Source: a virus | Taxonomy: Duplodnaviria > Caudoviricetes | Strand: one strand, 5' to 3' | DNA length: 64,000 bases | IMG/VR virus record: IMGVR_UViG_3300047576_000104 | Span: 1 to 64,000 of that record | Shown: piece after piece, positions 13,336-56,017 of the stretch | How positions within the stretch are numbered: position 1 is the first letter of the stretch | Layout: each line of letters begins with the position of its first letter | The notes under the pieces: generated by a model | Told to the model about the DNA's origin: nothing | The model's database searches: none | What the model saw: the letters and a program-made list of their open reading frames with translations, nothing else | Made by a program: the position numbers and the translations under genes

Positions 13336-13776
13336 ATTCCGGCGAACACCGCTCCGATCTTCACCCTGACACCGGACATCCAGTGGGGCAGCGTCGACGA
13401 CAACTCGGGTGCGACCGCAGGCCCGATCCTGTCCGCGAACACGGCGATGGACGGTACCGGGTTCGTCACTACCGTGTTCACGGCCGGGGCAAACGGGTCG
13501 TATGTTTCGCAGCTGATCGCACGCCCGGTCGGTTCGAATGTTGCGACTGTGCTGCGGGTGTTCATCAACAACGGCTCTTCGAACGGAACACAGGCGAACA
13601 ACTGCCTGTATACCGAAGCCACTCTGCCTATTTCGACGGCGAGCGCTGTCTCGGCCCTTCAGGGCATCAGCATCCCGCTCAACTTCGCGTTGGACGGCGG
13701 ATACAAGATCAACGTCACCCTCGGCACAGCAGTGCTTGGCGGATACCGGGTTATGGTAGTTGGCGGTGATTACTAG
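13336..13776 (+). CDS. Small virion/tail-associated protein
   Basis: Frame is open upstream of the ATG at 13447 to (I)PANTAPIFTLTP after a GAGGGG RBS; ends GGDY. Confidence 0.6.
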   Translation: MPANTAPIFTLTPDIQWGSVDDNSGATAGPILSANTAMDGTGFVTTVFTAGANGSYVSQLIARPVGSNVATVLRVFINNGSSNGTQANNCLYTEATLPISTASAVSALQGISIPLNFALDGGYKINVTLGTAVLGGYRVMVVGGDY

Positions 13777-27947: not shown

Positions 27948-28844
27948 ATGCGTGATACCGGAAGCTCAGTCCCAGCAGGGCCAGAAGAGCTTTTCAGGGT
28001 GTATTACGGCTATGTCAGGAAGGTTGTTGCGGCTACATCGGCGATCAGGGCGCAGGATGTCGATGATGTAGCCATGGAGATCATGACCAGGCTGATTGAG
28101 CGTGATGTGATAGGCATGTTCGATCCAGCCAAGACGTTCAGTTACGGGGATAAGCAGATTCCGGCGCGGTTCAGCACGTTTCTGACAGCACAGGTTTCGT
28201 TGTATGTTAAAGGGCAGCGAGACCGGCTTGGCCGGCAGCACAAGAGGGAGCTGTTCGTTATCGATAGCCCGCCTCCTGGAGAGGACGGCGGCTTGTCCTG
28301 GGCCGATGTATTCGGTGGTTCCGAGGACGACCTGTCTGGCCTGGACGCGGCTGAGTGGATCAGGCAGGCTAGGGGGTTCCTGTCAACTGTGCCCAGAAGG
28401 TCCGACAGGGATAGCTGTGATCTGGTCATGCTGTTTGATGAACTGGTCTCCCAGGTAGCAGCAACTGGCACTGTAAATTCTGCTGAGACTGCGGCGCGGC
28501 TCGGCGTGTCCTCAGCCGTCACTGGTCGCTGGGTGCAGTGGCTCCGGTCTAATCTCCGGCAGCAAGCGGCTCTTTCTCGCAGGGTGACTATAGCCGGGGA
28601 CACTTACACCCTCGCCCATGTCAGGCAGGCTGTGGCTATCTTGCAGGGCGTGAAGGGACAGCCGCACGTACGGCAGCCGCTGCAGCGGGCCGGCAACCCT
28701 CTCTGGCAACTGGACTACCACAAGGTTGCTCGATACGAGCGGGCTACGTTCGCCATTGAGGTGCCCGCAGGAGACCACCACCGGCCGGCCCCGCACGTCC
28801 TGACCGCAGTCGTGCATCACCTTGAGCGTGTGGCTGCCACATGA
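27948..28844 (+). CDS. Second sigma-70-like (ECF-like) factor with C-terminal extension
   Basis: LFRVYYGYVRKVV...DVDDVAMEI...FSTFL (region 2); SAETAARLGVSSAVTGRW (region-4 HTH). Confidence 0.65.
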   Translation: MRDTGSSVPAGPEELFRVYYGYVRKVVAATSAIRAQDVDDVAMEIMTRLIERDVIGMFDPAKTFSYGDKQIPARFSTFLTAQVSLYVKGQRDRLGRQHKRELFVIDSPPPGEDGGLSWADVFGGSEDDLSGLDAAEWIRQARGFLSTVPRRSDRDSCDLVMLFDELVSQVAATGTVNSAETAARLGVSSAVTGRWVQWLRSNLRQQAALSRRVTIAGDTYTLAHVRQAVAILQGVKGQPHVRQPLQRAGNPLWQLDYHKVARYERATFAIEVPAGDHHRPAPHVLTAVVHHLERVAAT

Positions 28845-47373: not shown

Positions 47374-48266
47374 GTGAGTCACTATGATAGGGAAACTGGC
47401 CTGATTAAGATCTCATGGTCTTTAAGATACGAACCGCCGAGGAGTGCAAGCAGAAGGCGTTTTTGATAGCCGAGGGTAAAAAGGCAAAGGCTTCTGATGT
47501 TCGGATCTTCTTCCAGGGGAATGTCGTTGACCAGGCTATGCGCAGGCGGTTGTCCATGGATCACCCGCCTATGCACTGGATGGCGCAGTACATTGACCAG
47601 ATCATGGATGAGACCGAGGCGAAGGTCAAAGAAGAAGATGGGGTGCTCCGGTGGAAGCACCGCGATGATCGTAAAGAGGTCAGGCAGTTCTGCTATGAGT
47701 GCGTGATGCGCCTTGAACCGATTTTGGGGCAGCTGATCCTCCCGTACGAGTACCAGCCCGCTCTCCGGTTCAGTACGAAGATGAACATCCCTGGTCTGGA
47801 TGACCAGCCGACGCCCATCCTGCTGGTGGGCGAGATGGACGTTCTGACCTGCTACAAGCCGCCGCTGCCGGACATCGAATTTGATCAGGATCCTATCGTT
47901 CGGGCACTGTGGCGTCCGGAGTACCGGGTGTGGGACCTGAAGGTCACCAAGGATGCCAGTTACTGGCGCAAGACAGCCGCGCAGCTAGTGTTCTACGATA
48001 TCGTCTGCTCGTGCATGTTCGGCGTGCCGACCGTGGAGGTCGGGCTGATCCAGCCCATGGTGGAGGGGTATCCGTGGATCTCGTTCCGGCCGTCTGAGGA
48101 GGACCGGACGCAGATGTACACCCGGATTGTCAGCGTGGCGCAGGCCATCATGCGGGCTGACCACTCCCCAAAAGCTGATAGCACAGGCTGCAGCTACTGC
48201 GAAACCAGGAACGCCTGCGTCAAGTACGCGCCCGAGCCAGGTACCAAGACAATGCCACTATTTTAG
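47374..48266 (+). CDS. PD-(D/E)XK nuclease, Cas4/RecB-like with Fe-S Cys motif; frameshift near 47420
   Basis: ISWS..KIRTAEECKQK, GEMDVL, WDLK, QLVFY, C-terminal CSYCETRNAC. Confidence 0.8.
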
Positions 48267-48280
48267 GAAGAAGCTACGCT

Positions 48281-48715
48281 ATGGCTAGACTACCGAGCAC
48301 GATGTACCTCATGCAGCAGATCGGCGGGGAGGTAATTCTCTTCGAGGACTACACCGAGCGGGAGATCGTCCGGTTCGATCCGGGCGACGGCAACGCGGCG
48401 GCGGATGCCCTGAATGTCATCCGCGACTCGGAACTTGGTGACGAGGACAAGTGCTTCGCCTGCTTCTGGGCAGGCTACTTTGCCGCGTATGCGGGCGCGG
48501 ACCCCGTACAGCGTCCAGGCTACGTCTATGAGACACTGGACAATCAGGTGGTTGTGATGTGCACGGGGAACGATGCTGTCGTCTTCGATCCGCGTGACGC
48601 TAACGCATCCGCTATGGCGCAGAAGCCGATCCACGACTCCGGTCTGAGTCAGGACGAGAAGAACCGTGCGCACTTCTGGTGCGGATACTTCTACGCGCAC
48701 GCGAGTGGTGCTTGA
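48281..48715 (+). CDS. Hypothetical protein with tandem-duplicated ~65-aa domain
   Basis: FDP...DS.L...K..A.FW.GYF.A.A occurs twice. Confidence 0.7.
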   Translation: MARLPSTMYLMQQIGGEVILFEDYTEREIVRFDPGDGNAAADALNVIRDSELGDEDKCFACFWAGYFAAYAGADPVQRPGYVYETLDNQVVVMCTGNDAVVFDPRDANASAMAQKPIHDSGLSQDEKNRAHFWCGYFYAHASGA

Positions 48716-48957
48716 TGGAAGACGTGACCGCTCACGTGGCCAGCCTGCGCGCTCGCGTGGATGCTGCGGTTCGTGCCAGGACCGGGGCTGAGTATGCCCG
48801 TCAGCAGGCCGAGCAGGCTGTGCAGACGGCCACTGCTGCGCTGAAGCAGGAGTTCGGTGTGGAGACGCCGGAGCAGGCGCAGGCTCTGCGAGCTGATCTC
48901 GATAGCAAGATCGCTGCTGAGATCCAGAAGATCGAGCAGGCGCTAGGAGGAACATGA
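48715..48957 (+). CDS. Small coiled-coil protein
   Basis: Heptad-rich, LKQEFGVETPEQA. Confidence 0.6.
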   Translation: MEDVTAHVASLRARVDAAVRARTGAEYARQQAEQAVQTATAALKQEFGVETPEQAQALRADLDSKIAAEIQKIEQALGGT

Positions 48958-50099
48958 CTGACGAGCAGATCCTCGGGTTTACTGCAAAGCGGTTTCATCT
49001 GCTTCAACTGGTCAAGCGCGCAGTCGTGGCCATCCCAGGCAAGAACATCTATCCGCTGCTGGCAAACTTCCAGGTCGTGGTAGGGGACGGCAGGCTCCAG
49101 GTGACGGCTACGGATATGGAGCTGAGTGTCGTCAGTGAGTCTGAGCTGGTGGTATGCAGCGGCTCTGGCACTCTGCTGCTTCCGGCTAAGCGCTTCCTGG
49201 AGATCCTGACTTCGGCTGCCGAGGGAGATGTGAGCGTCAAGGTCTCTGCCGGTACTGCCTCCATCACGGCCGGCACTGCTTCATGGTCGCTGGTGCTTCA
49301 GTCTTCAGAGGACTACCCTCTTCGTCCGGCTGTGAAGGACATCGCTTTCACGGAGGTCAGCAGGGCGAAGTTCCTGGCTGCTCTCGTCCTGGCCAGGAGT
49401 GCTGCCAGCCGGGACGGCACCAACCCCCGCCTGATGGCGATCAGCATTTCGGGCGGGAAGGTGATCGCAGGCTCGCACGTGCGCCTTCACCGGGTCATCC
49501 TGTCTGGCATAGTGCTTCCAGATATTCAGATCCCGATCGGCGCTGTTGATGATCTGGTGCGCCTGCTGAAGGACAGCAGCCTTGAAGAGATCGGCATAGG
49601 CGAGGCGGAACATGACCTGGCCTTCCGGATCGGGTCAGACGTGTTCATGTCCGGCAAGCTGGCCAGCGAGTATCCAGATATGGAGAAGCGGCTGCTGACT
49701 CCTCCGCTCCTGTCTAACAAGGACGAGCTTCGGGTAGACAAGAGCGACCTTGTGGCAGCTATCAAACGGGTCAGGATTACGGCTGACGCAGGTTCGGCAG
49801 CTATTGGCCTGCGGATAGTGCCCGGCGCGATCAGGGTTATCAGTCAGGATCAGAACCATAACACTGCCTGCGAAGAGATCCCTGCCCAGTGGAGTCATAG
49901 GCAGCGTCTGCTGGTAGTTAATCATGAGCACCTGGCAGACCTGCTAGGGCTTGCTGAAGGTCCGCAAGTGCTTTTCGTGCTAGGCGAGGACTCAGGCAAG
50001 CGCCGGAGTCCTCTGGTACTGAAAGATGATAAGGCCGGCACTGCCGGTGTTATAGGCCAGTTGGCCGTAGTTCTGATCGAGTTAGCGAGAGTAGAAGCT
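48954..50099 (+). CDS. dnaN: DNA polymerase III beta sliding clamp
   Basis: PLLANF, LQVTATDMELS, G.LLLPAKRF.EI, EDYP, K.LASEYPD, LVAAIKRV. Reads through in frame into the cold-shock gene. Confidence 0.88.
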
Positions 50100-50474
50100 A
50101 TGTCAGCAGGTGTTGTAAAGACCTGGATGGAAGACCGTGGTTTCGGGTTCATCACCGAGGATGGCGGTTCGGATGTGTTCGTGCATGTTAAGCAGCTGCC
50201 TCAGGGCGTCAAGCAGCTTCAGCCGGATACCAGGGTGATGTTCGAGAAGAAGCAAACGAATCGCGGGGTGCAGGCGTTCGGCGTTATGCTCGATGCAGAT
50301 AGCGGTCCTGATGATCCTCCTGACTTTCTCACTGAGAGGGAGTTCCTCAGGGATCTGAACGGACTTCTCCCTCCGCTCAGGGAGGTCCACAAGCAGGCTC
50401 TCATGGACATCGCCAGAGATCACGGGTGGGTGGTTGATTTATGCCTGAGCTGCGTGACTTGGAAACTCGCGTGA
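50100..50474 (+). CDS. Cold-shock domain protein
   Basis: GVVKTWMEDRGFGFITEDGGSDVFVH (RNP1/RNP2)...RGVQA. Confidence 0.88.
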   Translation: MSAGVVKTWMEDRGFGFITEDGGSDVFVHVKQLPQGVKQLQPDTRVMFEKKQTNRGVQAFGVMLDADSGPDDPPDFLTEREFLRDLNGLLPPLREVHKQALMDIARDHGWVVDLCLSCVTWKLA

Positions 50475-51079
50475 GTGCTGCTAGACATGCGTATGAGCGC
50501 AGGGTCGGTGCTGCCCAGCAGCTAGGAGAGGCCGGCCTGAGGATGCAGGCTGAGGTGACCAGGCTGCAAGATCTTCAGGAGAGGCACGCTAAGGTCTCTG
50601 CCCTGCTGACATCGTTGGGCGAGAAGGCTCAGCAGCAGGCGCAGGAGCGACTGGAGGAGCTGGTCACCCGTGGCCTTCAGGTCATCTTCGGCACAGAACT
50701 CTCATTCCATGTCATCCAGTCGGTGAAGGCCAATCAGGCAGTCACCGAGTTCATGATCCGGTCGGAGTACGACGGGATGACAGTGGACACTTCGGTCATG
50801 GATGCCCGAGGCGGAGGGATGGCCGCTGTCACAGGTTTCATGATCCGGCTGGTGGTACTGCTGCTTACTCCGCGAGCCCGGCGTGTTCTCTTCCTGGATG
50901 AGACGTTCAGGTTTGTGTCCAGCGAGTACGAGGGACGACTGGCGGAGTTCCTGGCTGAGGTGGCAGAGCGAGCTGGCGTACAGATCGTGCTAGTTACCCA
51001 CTCGTCAGCGTATGACGATGTGGCCGATGCACGGTACCGATTGGAGCTGGGGAGCAATGGAATCGCTACCATCGTCTGA
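50441..51079 (+). CDS. SbcC/Rad50-like ATPase, C-terminal half (signature + Walker B)
   Basis: Coiled coil, DARGGGM, LFLDETF..VS, QIVLVTH. Confidence 0.85.
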   Translation: MPELRDLETRVSAARHAYERRVGAAQQLGEAGLRMQAEVTRLQDLQERHAKVSALLTSLGEKAQQQAQERLEELVTRGLQVIFGTELSFHVIQSVKANQAVTEFMIRSEYDGMTVDTSVMDARGGGMAAVTGFMIRLVVLLLTPRARRVLFLDETFRFVSSEYEGRLAEFLAEVAERAGVQIVLVTHSSAYDDVADARYRLELGSNGIATIV

Positions 51080-51128
51080 GCTGGAGCTGGTAGTTCTTGA
51101 TCGAGCTGGGTGAGTAGCAGGTATAGTA

Positions 51129-51238
51129 CAGGTAAGGGCAGGCAGCCAGCAGCGTGTCCTTACCTGGTTCCTGCCGTGAAACCTAGGGTGGCGTGCCCCA
51201 CCTCGTCATTACGGCTCTAGCAGAGTAGCGGCAGGAAC
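51129..51238 (+). ncRNA. Candidate structured RNA: 12-bp hairpin followed by a 72-nt multi-branch element
   Basis: CAGGTAAGGGCA/TGTCCTTACCTG; GTTCCTGCCG (51167-76)/CGGCAGGAAC (51229-38) enclosing GGTGG/CCACC, CGT/ACG and GCTCT/AGAGT hairpins; TATAGT -10-like box at 51122. Confidence 0.5.
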
Positions 51239-51265
51239 TCGTATTACTGGTGGGAGGTGGGAATT

Positions 51266-54138
51266 ATGTCTGACTGGAGCCCGGAAGCTATCAGCAAGTT
51301 CATCAACACACATGCCTATAAGCTAGATGGCCCGGCCCAGTGGGCAGGAACAGAGCCTAACTCCCGGCATAAGGATTGGGATTCAGCATCGTTCCGGATG
51401 CTCATGGCTGCGTCCTGGCCTTACGATCAGGCGGCTGGTAATCAGTCGATCCCTGCTGTGTGGAAGGCAATCAATGATCGACGAGCCGATTACCTATGCG
51501 ATCGGTACTACCTTCCAGCTACTCCCAGGGATATGCGCATATTCGAGCGGTCAGGTGTTCCTGTTTTTGGCATCGAGTCAAGGCACCCTCTCCGCGATTT
51601 CGATGTGGTGGGGACCAGCATCTCTTACGTTGTTTTGCTAGTTAATTTCACGAAATACCTGTCCATGTCAGGTGTGCCGCTGCGCTGGCGTGACCGTGTG
51701 CCGGAGGAGCACCCCATGATCATGATCGGCGGGCAGGCGTTCTGCAATCCGGAGGCCATGGCCCCGGTAGCCGACTGCATCTTCGTCGGTGAGGCTGAGG
51801 ATGAGCCGGGTAATGGCGGCATTGGGCAGGTCTGCCGGATGATCGAGATGTTCAAGAAGGAAGGTATCTGGAATGAAGATCGTGTCGCTTGCTATCAACG
51901 GCTTGCCCGTACCTTCAACTACCTCTACTTCCCGCGTTTCGTGGATGTGCGATACTCCGTGGGGTCCGGCCTGGACGGAGCCCCTACCAAGGCCGTATCC
52001 GGATATTCCAGCCAGCTAGACGGGATGCGGATGCCGTTCCGCAAGCGGCACGTCATCGACCTGGACAAGATCAAGCCGCTGGACGATCCGCCGCTGCTGT
52101 ACGTCGATCCGTCACTGGGCTCGGGTGATTTGGAAGCTCAGCGGGGTTGTCCGGCTTGGTGCAGCTTCTGCAGACTTTCTTTCGCGCAGAAGCCCCCCCG
52201 GCAACGCTCGGTGGGGTTCCTGACAGAGTTTGCGCAGCGGCTACAGCGCAATGTTGGTGGTGTGGAGATTAGCCCGTTCGGTCCAGATTGGCCATTTGTT
52301 ACCAACAAGAACCAGGTTCTTAAGTCGTTGCTAGAGAATGTCACTGACAAGACAGATACCGTGGCTCAGCGAGTTGACGACTTTATCAGTGATGAAACAT
52401 ATCTAGTCCTTCAGGCAGTTGGAGGTGCACGCTCTATTACCCTCGGGCTTGAGGGCGTTAGTCAGCGGATGCGTGACTTGGTTGGCAAGGCCACGTCTGA
52501 CGCTGAGGTGCGCGAAGCTGTCACTCGTGGCATCCGCGCAGGGTTCAAGAAGTTCAAGCTGTTCATGATCGTCGGCCTGCCGGGGGAGGACACCGGGGAC
52601 GTGGCCAGGATCATGCAGTTGGCCCGTGACCTGGCAGACATTCGTGATTCGCTGGCTACTGACAAGGTGCAGATCCAGTTCAGCTTCACGCCGCTGCTAT
52701 ATGAGGCGCAGACTCCTTTCCAGTGGTTCCCTACGTGGCCGGTGCCGGACCATGACCTGATTGACGTGGCCAATGAGCTGAAAGAGCTGAAGATCTTGTT
52801 CAAGATTGGCACTAAGGCCGAGACGAATAAGGTTCACTTCTTCCAACTCTGCCAGAGGGCCAGCCGGGACGCGGGCGAGGCCATTATCGATGTTCTGGAA
52901 GAGATGGACATGGGCTGCTGGGGAGGCGTGCCCAAGGACATGCAGGCAAGGCTGGATGCTGCCCTGAAGAAGCGACGGCTTTGTTAATGGGTTCGGTGAT
53001 CTGTTCGGGGAGCGTGACCGTGGGGACATGCTCGGCTGGGAGTTCATCGATACGGGCATCAGCCGGGACCTGTTGTGGAACACGTTCGTCAAGATGCGCG
53101 AGTTTGCTGAGCGCACTGATAGCGCTACCTACGATACGAAGTTTGATGAGAGGTACCATGGGCAAGAGTGGATCGACCGATGTGACGAACGCTGTATGGG
53201 CCAGTCATGCGGCGTATGCACGGGAGAAGATCTGCGACTGCGGAAGTCATATCTTGGAGCGGCAACTGCCGACCGGGCTGTATCGGTGCGGGATGTGCAA
53301 GCCGGTCGATCAGACCACCGTTGCCGTACGTGTCCGCGCTAGGCTGGCACGTCCTGCCGAGTTCCGCTACGCCGACAACGGATTCAGGCGACACCTGCTG
53401 CGGCGTGCCGGATACCGGGCTCAGGAACTGCTCGGCGGGCCGTGTGTGTCCAAGAATGCCATCTGGTTCGCTTCCGATGCCCATGGTTACCGGGACTGGA
53501 CCTTCGGCACTGATTACGTGGACTTCGGCCTGACGCGGCGCATCCGCAGGCTGAACAATGCCGAGCATGACTGGATGATGAAGCTCCGGACTGAGCTGGC
53601 ACCGTGGCTGGAGCTGAAGGAGTGGCAGGTCTATCCGGCTACGGTGTCCATGCGGTCAGCGTCGGGGGCCAGCCTGCACGAGCTGGAGATCAATGACGCT
53701 CCCGATACGGTTCGCGCCCGGCTTCGTGACTGGGAGATGTCCGAGCACGTGAAGCTCCTGATAAGGCAGGAGGGGTCCTACTTCGCGGCGGCCACCGAGG
53801 AGGTCAACGCGAAGGACTACGTGGATGACCTCTGGCTGGTGCGGGACGGCACCCGGCTGCTGCTGAAGATGCTCGCCAGGCACCGGGCAGGTCCGTACCA
53901 GGTGTACCAGGCGCTCATGAGCAAGCCGAGCTGGATCGAGGCGGCCCAGTTCCCGGCCCGCACCCTGGACGTGTTCTCGTGCCGTGATGAGTTGGAAGGG
54001 AGAGTGTGCCCGCGCTGCGGCAACTCTCTCCCGGAATCACTGATAGGCATCCAGTGGGATGGTGTCTACTGCGCACGGTGCAAGGATGAGCGGGCCAGGA
54101 TCGTCCTGGCCGGCCTGACGAGGGAGACAGTCGGATGA
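51266..54138 (+). CDS. Radical SAM protein, TIGR03960-like, fused to a TIGR03936/DUF2344-like domain; frameshifts near 52975 and 53295
   Basis: FGIESRHPLRDFDVVGTSISY, GGQAFCNPEAMA...GEAE, RGCPAWCSFC (CxxxCxxC), SQRMRD..GK, KLFMIVGLPGE, TPFQW, WEFIDTGISR..LW, CGVC, then RARLARPAEFRY...LLRRA. Confidence 0.82.
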
Positions 54139-54446
54139 TCGCAGTAGTAGGACCGCAGGAGCTCCGGGCGGCAGCGGAGTTGATCCGTACCAAGGGCCAT
54201 TGCAAGCACGAGCTGCACGATGATGAAGGACGGTACTGTGCGGTAGGAGCCATTTTTGCTGTGACTGCTGGCCTTGATTCGCTGCCGCCGTTTCTGAATA
54301 GCATTTCCGGTGAGCTGTTTCCTGGACAGTTTGAGTACGGGCAGGAAAATCTCGTGTGCTTCAACAATCACCCGGACACCACGGCAGAGGATGTCATATC
54401 CGTGCTGGAGAAGGCAGCGGCTCGGCTGGAGGAGGCAGTCCTGTGA
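54135..54446 (+). CDS. Conserved phage protein (DUF6197-like)
   Basis: LRAAAELI..KG.C...GRYCAVGAI...FNNHP.TTAEDVI.VLEKAA. Confidence 0.65.
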   Translation: MIAVVGPQELRAAAELIRTKGHCKHELHDDEGRYCAVGAIFAVTAGLDSLPPFLNSISGELFPGQFEYGQENLVCFNNHPDTTAEDVISVLEKAAARLEEAVL

Positions 54447-55591
54447 CGGACCGGGAGACTCTCGGGAAGCTGCTGGCCAAGCGCGCTCGTGTCCGGGTGC
54501 AGAATCCGGTGATCGAGTCTGCTGTGTGGGAAGGCACCATCATCGCGCTGGCTGACACACCGGGCATCATCATAGAGTGCGATGACGGTCTCCGGATCGA
54601 TCTCCCGCAGTCGTTCAAGGTTACCGAGGTGATTCGTGTGACAGAGTATGGCAGCTGGCTTGAGATGCGCCAGCGGCAGGCGGAACTAGCTATGGAGAGC
54701 AACGTGAGTTTCAGCGGCAGGCCACAGGCGTGGACAACATCATGTGGGACGCCGAGCCCTGGTGGCACGTTGTGCTCGTTCCCGCCGCATAGTGCGCCGG
54801 GAGGTAGCGCATTGCATTCGTGGTCGGTTCCGGAGGTCTATGGCACGGACGCAGAGGTGCAGGCGGCGTTCGCGCAGCCAGCTCCGAAGCACAACGACGG
54901 CCCGTCCATGCATGATCTGGTGATCAAGGACATCCTGTCGCGTGACCTGCAGTGGGACTTGTCGGTTGGTTCAGCCAGGCACATCAGGGATCAGGTGGCT
55001 GAAGATCTGCTGGCCCGCAAGGCGTTCGGCCTGGACAAGTACAAGACGATCCTTCAGACCGGTAATGGCCGGAGCTTTCTCCTTGACCTGTACCAGGAGC
55101 TGATGGATGCTGTGTGCTACGCACGGGGCAGGCTCCTGGAAGTGCCAGAGGACGGCTTGGAGTGGCTGATCTTGTTCGAGATCTACGATCACGTGGCGAC
55201 AGACCTGGTGACGCTTCGGAGGCTGCTGAACGCGGCGGAGGCTAGCACCGAAAGCTTATCCGTGCGCTCGGTGTCGCTAGGTGGGAGGCAGGCCGTGGCA
55301 GACAGCGACTTCTCGAAGACGTGGCAGGAGATGCCTGGAGGCCAGGACATCGGTGACCAGTACATCATGGAGCCTGGCGCAGACACTGCGTTTGAGTGCT
55401 TCATGGAGACGGCGAGAGATGCCTTTGACCGGCTGCAGGCGCGTCGACACGAGGGCAGGTTCGCTCACCTCACTGGCCAGGTCGGCCGTGGGTTCGAGCG
55501 TCCGGTTGATGACGGAGAGCCGACCTGCTACCGGAGTGGCATAGGAGTCATGGTTCATGGTCCTGGCTGTCATTGCGAGAGCACTTCGTGA
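54443..55591 (+). CDS. Composite ORF containing an all-alpha NTP-pyrophosphatase (MazG-like) domain
   Basis: DLLARKAFGLDKYKT.LQ..NGRSFLLDLYQELMDAVCY; may be several genes merged by errors. Confidence 0.5.
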   Translation: MTDRETLGKLLAKRARVRVQNPVIESAVWEGTIIALADTPGIIIECDDGLRIDLPQSFKVTEVIRVTEYGSWLEMRQRQAELAMESNVSFSGRPQAWTTSCGTPSPGGTLCSFPPHSAPGGSALHSWSVPEVYGTDAEVQAAFAQPAPKHNDGPSMHDLVIKDILSRDLQWDLSVGSARHIRDQVAEDLLARKAFGLDKYKTILQTGNGRSFLLDLYQELMDAVCYARGRLLEVPEDGLEWLILFEIYDHVATDLVTLRRLLNAAEASTESLSVRSVSLGGRQAVADSDFSKTWQEMPGGQDIGDQYIMEPGADTAFECFMETARDAFDRLQARRHEGRFAHLTGQVGRGFERPVDDGEPTCYRSGIGVMVHGPGCHCESTS

Positions 55592-56017
55592 ACATTAGTG
55601 ATTCTGCCAAGTGCCCTGCCTGTGAGGCGATGGTTGAGCCTGAGCAGGACGGGGACCTGATCTACTACCCGTGCGGCTGTGGTTTCGAGTTTAACTACAC
55701 GCGCATACCGCAGCAGGATGAGGCCTGCCAGGCAGGCATACCGGAAGACATTCGCAGGGCGGCGCAGCCTGCGCCTGAGGCTACTAGCCTGCCCCTTCTA
55801 CAGATAGGCAGGCGTCCGTAGTGAGTCTCAGACAATCTATAACTACTCCGCACGGGGTGCTGACTGTTGTTCAGCCCTACGCTTACGTCGCAGACGAATG
55901 GCCGGATGCTTCTCCGGATGTCATGGTGTCTGAGCCGCCGTACGCCCTGCTGAACGACAAGCCCATCACTGCAAAGCGTGCTCGTGAGATCCTACGAGGG
56001 ATGCAAAGGAGCGCCAA

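What the first reader, a model, noticed from the sequence alone, without database searches (positions are those of the whole stretch)
51097..54138. Phage radical SAM fusion (TIGR03960/TIGR03936-like) led by a tRNA-sized multi-branch RNA
Seen: a promoter-like TTGATC...TATAGT, then a 12-bp hairpin, then a 72-nt element closed by a perfect 10-bp stem with three inner hairpins, ending ~28 nt before the ATG of a ~950-aa radical SAM fusion. Known: this radical SAM family is uncharacterised and mainly cellular. Inference: the RNA could be a cis-regulator (riboswitch or autoregulatory mimic) or a substrate mimic if the enzyme modifies RNA. It lacks canonical tRNA T-loop/CCA features and I could not match it to SAM or cobalamin riboswitch consensus by eye.
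Basis: partly seen in the sequence, partly recalled or inferred. Interest (0 to 1): 0.72.

Follow-up and report, generated by a model that had tools for sequence, protein, structure and literature searches.

The report
Conserved leader hairpin before phage radical-SAM gene
A short stretch of folded RNA in front of a large enzyme gene of unknown function in an uncultured soil phage is real and kept by evolution in two related phages. It is a long irregular hairpin rather than a tRNA-like cloverleaf, and it probably tunes or stabilises the message rather than sensing a metabolite.

Summary
The sequence features are at the stated coordinates: a -10-like TATAGT, a 12-bp hairpin (51129-51166), a 72-nt element (51167-51238), then an SD and the ATG at 51266.

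Two points need correction.
- The "~950-aa fusion" is broken here into three reading frames by two single-base insertions, near 52976 and 53299. Relatives have one ~950-aa ORF.
- The three-hairpin, tRNA-sized fold is only this sequence's minimum-energy fold.

The element occurs once per genome and only in the three closest relatives I could reach (window, L022, L013). Across these three it folds as one long irregular hairpin: P1, an AGUA/GAA internal loop, P2, P3 and a C-rich apical loop CCCCACC. 97% of cells are paired and 10 pairs show compensatory change. Leader identity is 70%, against 40-51% at third codon positions.

About 35 more distant homologue loci lack it. In L013 a 90-aa ORF lies between it and the radical SAM gene. 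It is therefore tied to the start of an operon, not to the enzyme.

There is no Rfam, tRNA or terminator match. The most likely reading is a lineage-specific cis-acting 5' leader for stability or translation control.

The enzyme's tail has a TruA-like fold and is remotely homologous to TIGR03936. This scan has already noted the protein family in other phage genomes.

The parts
51097..51102 (+). -35-like hexamer TTGATC. Doubtful.
   Evidence: Read directly. It lies 19 nt from the -10-like box and is not reported by the promoter scan. It has no counterpart in L022 or L013, where this position is coding sequence.
51120..51127 (+). Conserved -10-like box GGTATAGT (TATAGT at 51122-51127).
   Evidence: GGTATAGT, GGTATGGT and GGTATAGT align in the window, L022 and L013 at the 5' edge of the conserved block. 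It is not a repeated motif in the window: 2 matches against 2.0 expected. Promoter activity is inferred, not shown.
51129..51166 (+). P0: 5' hairpin. 12 bp here, 7-10 bp in the relatives.
   Evidence: RNA folds of the window and of L022 and L013 each place a hairpin directly against the next stem. The stem base AGGGC...CUU is conserved and the top varies.
51167..51177 (+). P1 5' arm (GUUCCUGCCGU).
   Evidence: Pairs with 51228-51238. 100% of cells are paired in three sequences, and 5 of 14 pairs change on both sides.
51177..51182 (+). Internal loop, 5' strand: UGAAA(C), invariant UGAAA.
   Evidence: Identical in all three sequences. Together with GAGUAG opposite, it has the sequence of a loop-E / sarcin-ricin (AGUA/GAA) module. 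That is my reading from established knowledge and was not tested.
51183..51188 (+). P2 5' arm (CUAGGG).
   Evidence: Pairs with CUCUAG at 51215-51220. The homologous arms are AUUGGG/UCCAGU in L022 and CUGAGG/CCUCGG in L013, with compensatory changes.
51189..51208 (+). P3 (UGGCG/CGUCA) with the C-rich apical loop UGCCCCACCU (51194-51203).
   Evidence: Hairpins with a 9-10 nt loop carrying CCCCACC are present in all three sequences. The stem sequences differ but pairing is kept: 89% of cells.
51209..51214 (+). 3' bulge (UUACGG), 6-8 nt in all three sequences.
   Evidence: Manual decomposition checked against each sequence and evaluated energetically.
51215..51220 (+). P2 3' arm (CUCUAG).
51221..51228 (+). 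Internal loop, 3' strand: CAGAGUAG, invariant GAGUAG.
   Evidence: Part of a 13-nt block, GAGTAGCGGCAGG, that is identical in all three sequences.
51228..51238 (+). P1 3' arm (GCGGCAGGAAC).
   Evidence: The G.U pairs on the + strand (three in L022) would be A-C mismatches on the - strand, so the + strand is the folded one.
51250..51261 (+). G-rich Shine-Dalgarno region GTGGGAGGTGGG.
   Evidence: Read. GGAGG lies 8 nt before the ATG. It is complementary to the apical loop over 7 bp (-13.6 kcal/mol), but that value is only in the top 4-9% of background.
51266..52975 (+). Radical SAM gene, segment 1 (residues 1-570): PF19864 N-terminal domain and PF04055 radical SAM core.
   Evidence: 100% identical to P0002 residues 1-570. 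The CxxxCxxC motif is invariant in the family.
52976..52976 (+). First frame break: one extra base in AAGCGA-C-GGC.
   Evidence: tblastn of P0002 and P0003 changes frame between 52975 and 52977. In frame 2 the reading stops at TAA 52985-52987.
52977..53300 (+). Radical SAM gene, segment 2 (residues 571-678), in frame 0.
   Evidence: 99% identical to P0002. It carries the end of the TIGR03960-type region, as shown on the intact P0003.
53299..54138 (+). Radical SAM gene, segment 3, in frame 1. It holds the second frame break (near 53299-53300), the TIGR03936-like / TruA-fold domain, a C4 zinc ribbon and the stop codon.
   Evidence: frame. (model pLDDT 90; TruA Z 11.8, rmsd 3.1 A over 192 residues). 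(hhalign 90%, E 1.5e-6 against TIGR03936 sequences). (weak XPA-type zinc-finger match, E 0.011).
50441..51079 (+). Upstream gene: ABC/Rad50-type ATPase (phrog_15167).
   Evidence: In most distant homologue loci a gene of about 215 aa abuts the radical SAM start with no gap.

Best explanation
The 51120-51265 gap holds a lineage-specific, structurally conserved 5' leader RNA for the operon that begins with the radical SAM gene.

Inferred sequence of events:
1. Transcription starts a few bases after the conserved -10-like TATAGT.
2. The message therefore begins with a terminal hairpin (P0), which protects the 5' end.
3. P0 is followed directly by one long irregular hairpin: P1, an AGUA/GAA loop-E-like internal loop, P2, P3 and a C-rich apical loop.
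4. That hairpin is a recognition site for a protein, or for the G-rich ribosome-binding region, and sets the stability and translation of the downstream message.

Shown: the sequence features, their conservation, the covariation of the three helices, the strand, and one copy per genome.
Inferred: the promoter, the transcript ends, and any effect on stability or translation.
For: - The element is found in the only two close relatives I could reach: L022 (radical SAM 80-82% identical) and L013 (73-78% identical).
- RNAalifold, run without my input, gives one long hairpin of 25 pairs, 9 of them with compensatory change.
- Pair counting gives 97.3% of cells paired and 10 pairs changed on both sides. 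0 of 500 shuffles reach this, and slid controls give 41-51% paired.
- The unpaired blocks UGAAA, GAGUAG and CCCCACC are conserved while the stems vary.
- Leader identity is 70-71% in all three pairs, against 40-51% at third codon positions of the flanking genes.
- The G.U pairs work only on the + strand.
- There is one copy in G000 and one in the complete 139.6-kb relative G001.
- The -10-like box is conserved at the 5' edge, and the P0 core starts about 5-7 nt after it in L022 and L013.
- All three are followed within 25-45 nt by a strong SD and a start codon.
Against: - There are only three sequences, so the covariation statistics are weak. They rest on a MAFFT alignment that is uncertain in the centre.
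- There is no conserved -35. In the window the hairpin starts 1 nt after the -10 box, so a transcript starting 6-8 nt downstream would lack part of P0.
- For the window itself, the common fold (-27.4 kcal/mol) is 6 kcal/mol worse than the three-hairpin fold (-33.3).
- Loop-to-SD complementarity holds in two of three sequences (-13.6 and -17.8, but -6.7 in L022). The window's value is not unusual against background.
- No regulatory partner has been identified.
Confidence: 0.5

Rival explanations
1. It is a stand-alone small RNA gene. The -10 box drives a transcript of about 110 nt (P0 plus the long hairpin) that ends at the short U-rich stretch after P1. Its C-rich apical loop pairs in trans with G-rich ribosome-binding sites of phage or host messages, as the actinobacterial 6C sRNA does.
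For: - A C-rich loop CCCCACC sits on a GC-rich hairpin in all three sequences.
- 6C sRNA acts through C-rich loops on G-rich targets (PMC6486639, found).
- GGTGGG-type ribosome-binding regions recur in the window, and several bind the loop better than the gene's own SD: -19.0 at 27948 and -16.9 at 13383.
- P1 is followed by UAUU in the window, UUAUU in L022 and UAUUUU in L013.
Against: - cmscan reports no 6C or other sRNA family even at E up to 10.
- There is only one C-rich loop; 6C has two.
- The U stretch is short, starts 4 nt after the stem and is not called a terminator.
- A start codon with a strong SD always follows within 25-45 nt, as expected of a leader.
Confidence: 0.15
2. It is an RNA processing or boundary signal. 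The long irregular hairpin with an internal loop would be cut by RNase III, as at the phage T7 intergenic sites, or would act as a weak terminator. Either way it separates the upstream replication-gene message from the radical SAM message.
For: - About 11-14 bp below and 11-13 bp above a conserved asymmetric internal loop resembles the T7 RNase III sites. This comparison is from my knowledge and was not tested.
- The element sits in one of the few gaps of a tightly coupled gene block.
- L013 has UAUUUUC after the stem.
Against: - There is a single copy per genome, whereas T7-type sites recur between several genes.
- The terminator scan reports nothing here.
- The conserved apical loop and the conserved -10-like box are not explained by a cleavage site alone.
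Confidence: 0.15
3. It is a cis-acting antitermination RNA of the phage HK022 put type. Two abutting hairpins just downstream of a promoter would bind the transcribing RNA polymerase and make it read through terminators across the long downstream operon.
For: - Two directly abutting hairpins (0-2 nt apart) lie immediately after a promoter-like box, with conserved internal-loop nucleotides.
- Many coupled genes follow.
Against: - This is resemblance of layout only, recalled from knowledge of HK022.
- There is no sequence or model match, no second copy at another operon, and no terminators identified downstream.
Confidence: 0.07
4. This is the first reader's reading: a riboswitch, or a tRNA-like substrate or autoregulatory mimic recognised by the radical SAM enzyme's RNA-enzyme-like tail.
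For: - The tail has a TruA-type pseudouridine-synthase fold: Z 11.8, and the top eight matches are all pseudouridine synthases.
- The loop-E-like internal loop is a typical protein-binding module (my knowledge).
Against: - The multi-branch fold is not conserved.
- There is no tRNA and no Rfam riboswitch match.
- The element is absent from about 35 other loci of the same enzyme family.
- In L013 it is separated from the enzyme gene by another ORF.
- There is no junction or pocket-like conserved core and no obvious expression platform.
Confidence: 0.06
5. It is a non-functional spacer whose hairpins are chance or relic sequence.
For: - There are only three instances.
- GC-rich DNA folds readily: the L022 core alone has z = -0.84.
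Against: - Compensatory changes occur in three helices.
- A 13-nt block is invariant.
- Identity is 70% against 40-51% at third codon positions.
Confidence: 0.07

Closest known systems
5'-terminal stabiliser hairpins and structured 5' leaders of bacterial and phage mRNAs (for example the E. coli ompA 5' UTR and the phage T4 gene 32 leader). From my knowledge.
   Same: A hairpin at or near the first transcribed bases is followed by a second structured module and then the SD. It lies next to a promoter, occurs once, and is in cis with an operon.
   Different: No sequence relationship. The 5' end has not been mapped here. The loop-E-like internal loop and the C-rich loop are features these examples do not share.
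6C sRNA of Actinobacteria (Rfam 6C family; PMC6486639).
   Same: A GC-rich hairpin presents a C-rich loop able to pair with G-rich ribosome-binding regions. The host is possibly actinobacterial; that lead comes from earlier notes of this scan and was not tested here.
   Different: There is one C-rich loop instead of two. cmscan gives no match even at E up to 10. The element sits directly before a start codon, and it also carries a loop-E-like internal loop.
Phage T7 RNase III processing sites (R1.1 and others). From my knowledge.
   Same: An intergenic irregular hairpin with two stems of about one helical turn around a conserved asymmetric internal loop.
   Different: A single copy per genome, a conserved apical loop, a promoter-like box directly upstream, and cleavage not tested.
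Loop E / sarcin-ricin (bulged-G) module, AGUA opposite GAA. From my knowledge.
   Same: Invariant GAGUAG lies opposite UGAAA, next to a helix closed by a G.U pair, in the orientation of the module.
   Different: Identified from sequence only. No three-dimensional or probing evidence.
Cellular TIGR03960 'B12-binding radical SAM protein' with TIGR03936 / DUF2344 (function unknown).
   Same: - The TIGR03960 profile aligns over nearly its whole length: positions 6-576 of 605 on P0003.
- The CxxxCxxC motif is invariant.
- The tail aligns with three canonical TIGR03936 sequences at 90% probability over 202 columns.
- The tail has the pseudouridine-synthase fold of the Pfam clan that holds DUF2344 (PMC7955657, read).
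   Different: - The score of 197-204 bits is far below the curated cut-off of 462.
- The TIGR03936 model itself finds nothing in this genome at E up to 10.
- An extra C-terminal C4 zinc ribbon is present.
- The two parts are always fused, at about 950 aa.
- The gene sits in a phage replication module.
- There is no PHROG family and no close homologue in GenBank phages.

Membership tests
tRNA / tRNA-like element | Cloverleaf with D, anticodon and T arms that a tRNA finder can detect. | tested here: not met
   ARAGORN finds no tRNA or tmRNA in the whole window. The three inner hairpins are not kept in the relatives: 33-87% paired per helix, and 60 of 500 shuffles do as well.
Known riboswitch or other Rfam family (SAM, cobalamin and others) | Covariance-model score at or above the family's gathering threshold. 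| tested here: not met
   No match at gathering thresholds in the window. With E up to 10, only chance-level hits of 12-17 bits against thresholds of 37-100.
6C sRNA | Two hairpins, each with a C-rich loop, and a match to the Rfam model. | tested here: not met
   Only one hairpin has a C-rich loop. There is no 6C row in cmscan at E up to 10.
Intrinsic (Rho-independent) terminator | A short GC-rich stem with a 3-8 nt loop, followed at once by a run of at least 5 U. | tested here: not met
   The scan of 48000-56000 lists no site at 51129-51250. The tail after P1 is CUCGUAUUACUG.
Conserved structured RNA (general criterion) | Base pairs kept through compensatory change in homologous sequences. 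| tested here: met
   25 pairs, 97.3% of cells paired, 10 pairs changed on both sides, 0 of 500 shuffles reach this, and slid controls have at most 3. Caveat: only 3 sequences.
Sigma-70-type promoter | -35 and -10 hexamers with a 16-18 nt spacer; transcription start mapped. | tested here: inconclusive
   The -10-like TATAGT is conserved in three sequences. The spacer to TTGATC is 19 nt and the -35 is not conserved. No transcript data.
TIGR03960 (rSAM_fuse_unch) | NCBIfam score at or above the curated cut-off of 462.3 bits. | tested here: not met
   197 bits for the window's segment 1 and 204 bits for the intact P0003. The alignment does span profile positions 6-576 of 605.
Radical SAM superfamily | PF04055 above threshold and a CxxxCxxC cluster. 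| tested here: met
   PF04055 scores 43-48 bits against a cut-off of 29.5. C296, C300 and C303 are invariant in 30 homologues.
TIGR03936 / DUF2344 | Match to the family model (cut-off 71.9 bits). | tested here: not met
   No match in the genome at E up to 10 and no hit for the tail in Pfam or NCBIfam. Remote homology is supported by hhalign at 90.3% probability, E 1.5e-6 over 202 columns.
Pseudouridine synthase (TruA/Pus1 type) | The fold, plus the catalytic aspartate in the active-site loop. | tested here: inconclusive
   The fold is met: TruA Z 11.8, rmsd 3.1 A over 192 residues, Foldseek probability 1.0. A nearly invariant Ser-Asp exists (S59, D60 of the domain), but I could not check its structural equivalence to the catalytic Asp.

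The most novel reading that the evidence does not exclude
The leader is a dedicated protein-binding operator or a put-like polymerase-modifying RNA. Its loop-E-like internal loop and C-rich loop would be recognised by a phage protein, possibly the pseudouridine-synthase-like tail of the radical SAM enzyme itself or the cold-shock-domain clamp protein encoded just upstream. That would give feedback or timing control of a replication-module operon in an actinophage-like lineage.
Probability: 0.1. Interest if true: 0.65.

Novelty: new member of a known kind. Interest (0 to 1): 0.35.

Why it matters
The RNA is a candidate new structured motif that is absent from Rfam. It gives a small, testable handle on how one sub-lineage of large uncultured soil phages controls an operon inside its replication module.

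Its importance is limited. It is confined to a few close relatives, and it is not coupled to the enzyme family, so it will not reveal the enzyme's substrate.

The enzyme remains the more interesting object. It is a radical SAM protein fused to a TruA-fold domain and a zinc ribbon, conserved in hundreds of uncultured phage contigs and sometimes split by inteins. No chemistry is known for it or for its widespread bacterial relatives. This scan had already noted it in other genomes.

The report also warns that this record carries frame-breaking single-base insertions.

Tried and rejected
- **Metagenome and viral scans.** The one metagenome scan gave only one close relative, L022. Two viral scans with protein alignments gave only L013 as a close relative. 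A single-protein scan gave none.
- **DNA pattern scans.** One search found nothing. One search gave 5 hits, of which only the L013 contig was real. One search gave 80 hits in unrelated bacteria. A filter that required the closing stem kept only the window, L013 and L022.
- **Anti-SD idea.** The C-rich loop pairs with the gene's own SD in the window and in L013 but not in L022. The window's energy is only in the top 4-9% of background. I kept it as a possibility, not as the mechanism.
- **Leader peptide.** The GTG-started frames through the element differ in length and sequence among the three, so I rejected this (read).
- **Minus-strand function.** Rejected because the G.U pairs would become A-C mismatches.
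- **Programmed frameshifting at the two breaks.** Rejected as the first choice. The near-identical P0002 reads through both sites but is itself shifted near its C-terminus, and earlier notes report other broken genes in this record.
- **Repeated promoter motif.** GGTATRGT occurs at chance frequency.
Full report
**What is in the sequence.** The window lies in an IMG/VR virus record of 100,988 bp, classed as a provirus and estimated 72% complete. Between the stop of an ABC/Rad50-type ATPase gene (50441-51079) and the ATG at 51266 there is a 186-nt gap. It contains, in order:
- TTGATC at 51097-51102, then 19 nt, then TATAGT at 51122-51127.
- A 12-bp hairpin at 51129-51166.
- A 72-nt element at 51167-51238.
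- 27 nt with GGGAGG, then the ATG.

On its own the 72-nt element folds into a closing stem with three small hairpins: -31.7 kcal/mol, z = -3.4. The whole 143-nt stretch has z = -2.8. No tRNA, no Rfam family at gathering thresholds and nothing better than chance at E up to 10 is found. The promoter and terminator scan lists no site here.

**The gene is broken in this record.** There is no 950-aa ORF. The ORF list gives 51257-52987 (576 aa from a GTG; 573 aa from the ATG at 51266) and 52981-54138 in another frame. Translating all frames shows the conserved sequence running frame 2, then frame 0, then frame 1.

tblastn with the near-identical 940-aa protein P0002 and the 86%-identical P0003 places the segments at 51266-52975, 52977-53300 and 53299-54135. 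That means two single extra bases. P0002 reads through both places but is itself shifted near its C-terminus. Assembly error is therefore the simplest explanation. I could not check reads.

**The protein family.**
- More than 100 homologues of about 950 aa exist at 54% identity or more, on contigs of up to 200 kb.
- All carry PF19864 and PF04055 and an invariant CxxxCxxC.
- TIGR03960 aligns over almost its full length but scores 197-204 bits against a cut-off of 462.
- The last ~280 residues hit no Pfam, NCBIfam or PHROG model. The TIGR03936 model finds nothing in the genome.
- An AlphaFold model of this tail, built from 20 homologues, has pLDDT 90.
- Foldseek and VIA-align both rank TruA, Pus1, Pus3 and Pus10 pseudouridine synthases first: probability 1.0; Z 11.8, rmsd 3.1 A over 192 residues.
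- DUF2344 belongs to the Pfam pseudouridine-synthase clan (PMC7955657).
- A profile of the tail aligns with three canonical TIGR03936 sequences, taken from Streptomyces, Kitasatospora and Geomonas genomes, at 90% probability and E 1.5e-6.
- The extreme C-terminus is a C4 zinc ribbon with a weak XPA-type match.
- Some homologues carry an intein with an HNH nuclease.
- There is no close homologue among GenBank phages.

Earlier notes of this scan describe the same family in other phage genomes, between the clamp and clamp-loader genes. My results agree with them and were obtained independently.

**Is the RNA conserved?** I collected 20 viral and 17 metagenomic loci of the family. In most of them (45-52% identity) a gene of about 215 aa ends at or overlaps the radical SAM start, so there is no gap at all.

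The element is present in the two closest loci:
- L022 (80-82% identity): it lies directly before the radical SAM ATG.
- L013 (73-78% identity; a complete 139.6-kb genome with terminal repeats): it lies before a 90-aa ORF that overlaps the radical SAM start, and the upstream gene is different.

A covariance model built from the three sequences finds one copy in each genome and nothing in the other 35 loci. Pattern scans of the viral and genome collections returned only chance matches once a closing stem was required.

**Which structure?** RNAalifold on the three sequences predicts a single long hairpin, not a multi-branch fold:
- P1 (14 pairs).
- An internal loop with invariant UGAAA opposite GAGUAG.
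- P2 (5-6 pairs).
- P3 (5-7 pairs), with a 6-8 nt bulge on its 3' side.
- A 9-10 nt apical loop containing CCCCACC.

On this structure 97.3% of cells are paired and 10 pairs change on both sides. No shuffle of 500 reaches these values, and sliding the partners gives 41-51% paired. P2 reads CUAGGG/CUCUAG, AUUGGG/UCCAGU and CUGAGG/CCUCGG in the three sequences.

For the window alone, though, the three-hairpin fold is 6 kcal/mol more stable than the common fold, so both may form.

Each relative also has the 5' hairpin P0 directly against P1. The G.U pairs fit only the + strand. The leader is 70-71% identical in all pairs, while third codon positions of the radical SAM and ATPase genes are 40-51% identical. 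That indicates purifying selection. The caveat is that there are only three sequences.

**How it probably works.**
- The conserved block begins with the -10-like box, and the P0 core starts 5-7 nt after it in L022 and L013. The simplest reading is a promoter whose transcript starts with a terminal hairpin, a classical protection of the 5' end.
- The transcript then continues into a recognition hairpin. The AGUA/GAA internal loop has the sequence of a loop-E / sarcin-ricin module, a common protein-binding or tertiary-contact site. This is my knowledge and was not tested.
- The C-rich loop could mask the G-rich SD: 7-8 bp in the window and L013, at -13.6 and -17.8 kcal/mol. L022 lacks this pairing (-6.7), and the window's value is only in the top 4-9% of background. 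This step is therefore weak.
- Rivals are a stand-alone sRNA with a 6C-like C-rich seed (PMC6486639), an RNase III-type processing site, and a put-like antitermination RNA. Transcript mapping would separate them.
- A riboswitch or a substrate mimic tied to the enzyme is unlikely. The element is missing from the rest of the enzyme family, and in L013 it is separated from the enzyme gene.

**Verdict.** This is a new, narrowly distributed member of a known kind, the structured 5' leader, and it is of moderate to low general interest. The enzyme behind it is more intriguing but was already recorded by this scan.

Noticed in passing
window 52976 and 53299-53300: Two single-base insertions break the radical SAM gene into three frames. 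The near-identical P0002 reads through both but is frameshifted near its own C-terminus, so indel errors in the assemblies are likely.
   Followed up: partly
window 48954-50474; L022 692-1825 and 1853-2191: The beta-clamp gene is fused to a cold-shock domain in one 506-aa ORF in the window. In L022 the homologous parts are two ORFs of 377 and 112 aa. Either this is a real fusion or split, or it is another indel artefact.
   Followed up: no
L013 2726-2998: A 90-aa ORF with no Pfam or PHROG match sits between the leader and the radical SAM gene in the complete relative. It uses the same G-rich SD region that precedes the radical SAM gene in the window.
   Followed up: partly
proteins P0036 and P0117 (homologues): Some family members carry an intein with an HNH nuclease, inserted after the radical SAM core at about residues 650-850.
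   Followed up: no
window 53299-54135 (domain residues 59-60 and 237-261): The TruA-fold tail has a nearly invariant Ser-Asp (FASDAHG here) where canonical TIGR03936 sequences read differently. It ends in an invariant CxxC...CxxC zinc ribbon with a weak XPA-type match.
   Followed up: partly
window, whole: GGTGGG occurs 35 times on the + strand and 4 times on the - strand. Several copies lie just before start codons (for example 27934, 35488, 50424), which suggests an extended SD of the GGAGGUG type in this phage.
   Followed up: partly
window 54135-54138: The radical SAM stop codon overlaps the ATG of a DUF6197 gene (ATGA), so the two are probably translationally coupled.
   Followed up: no
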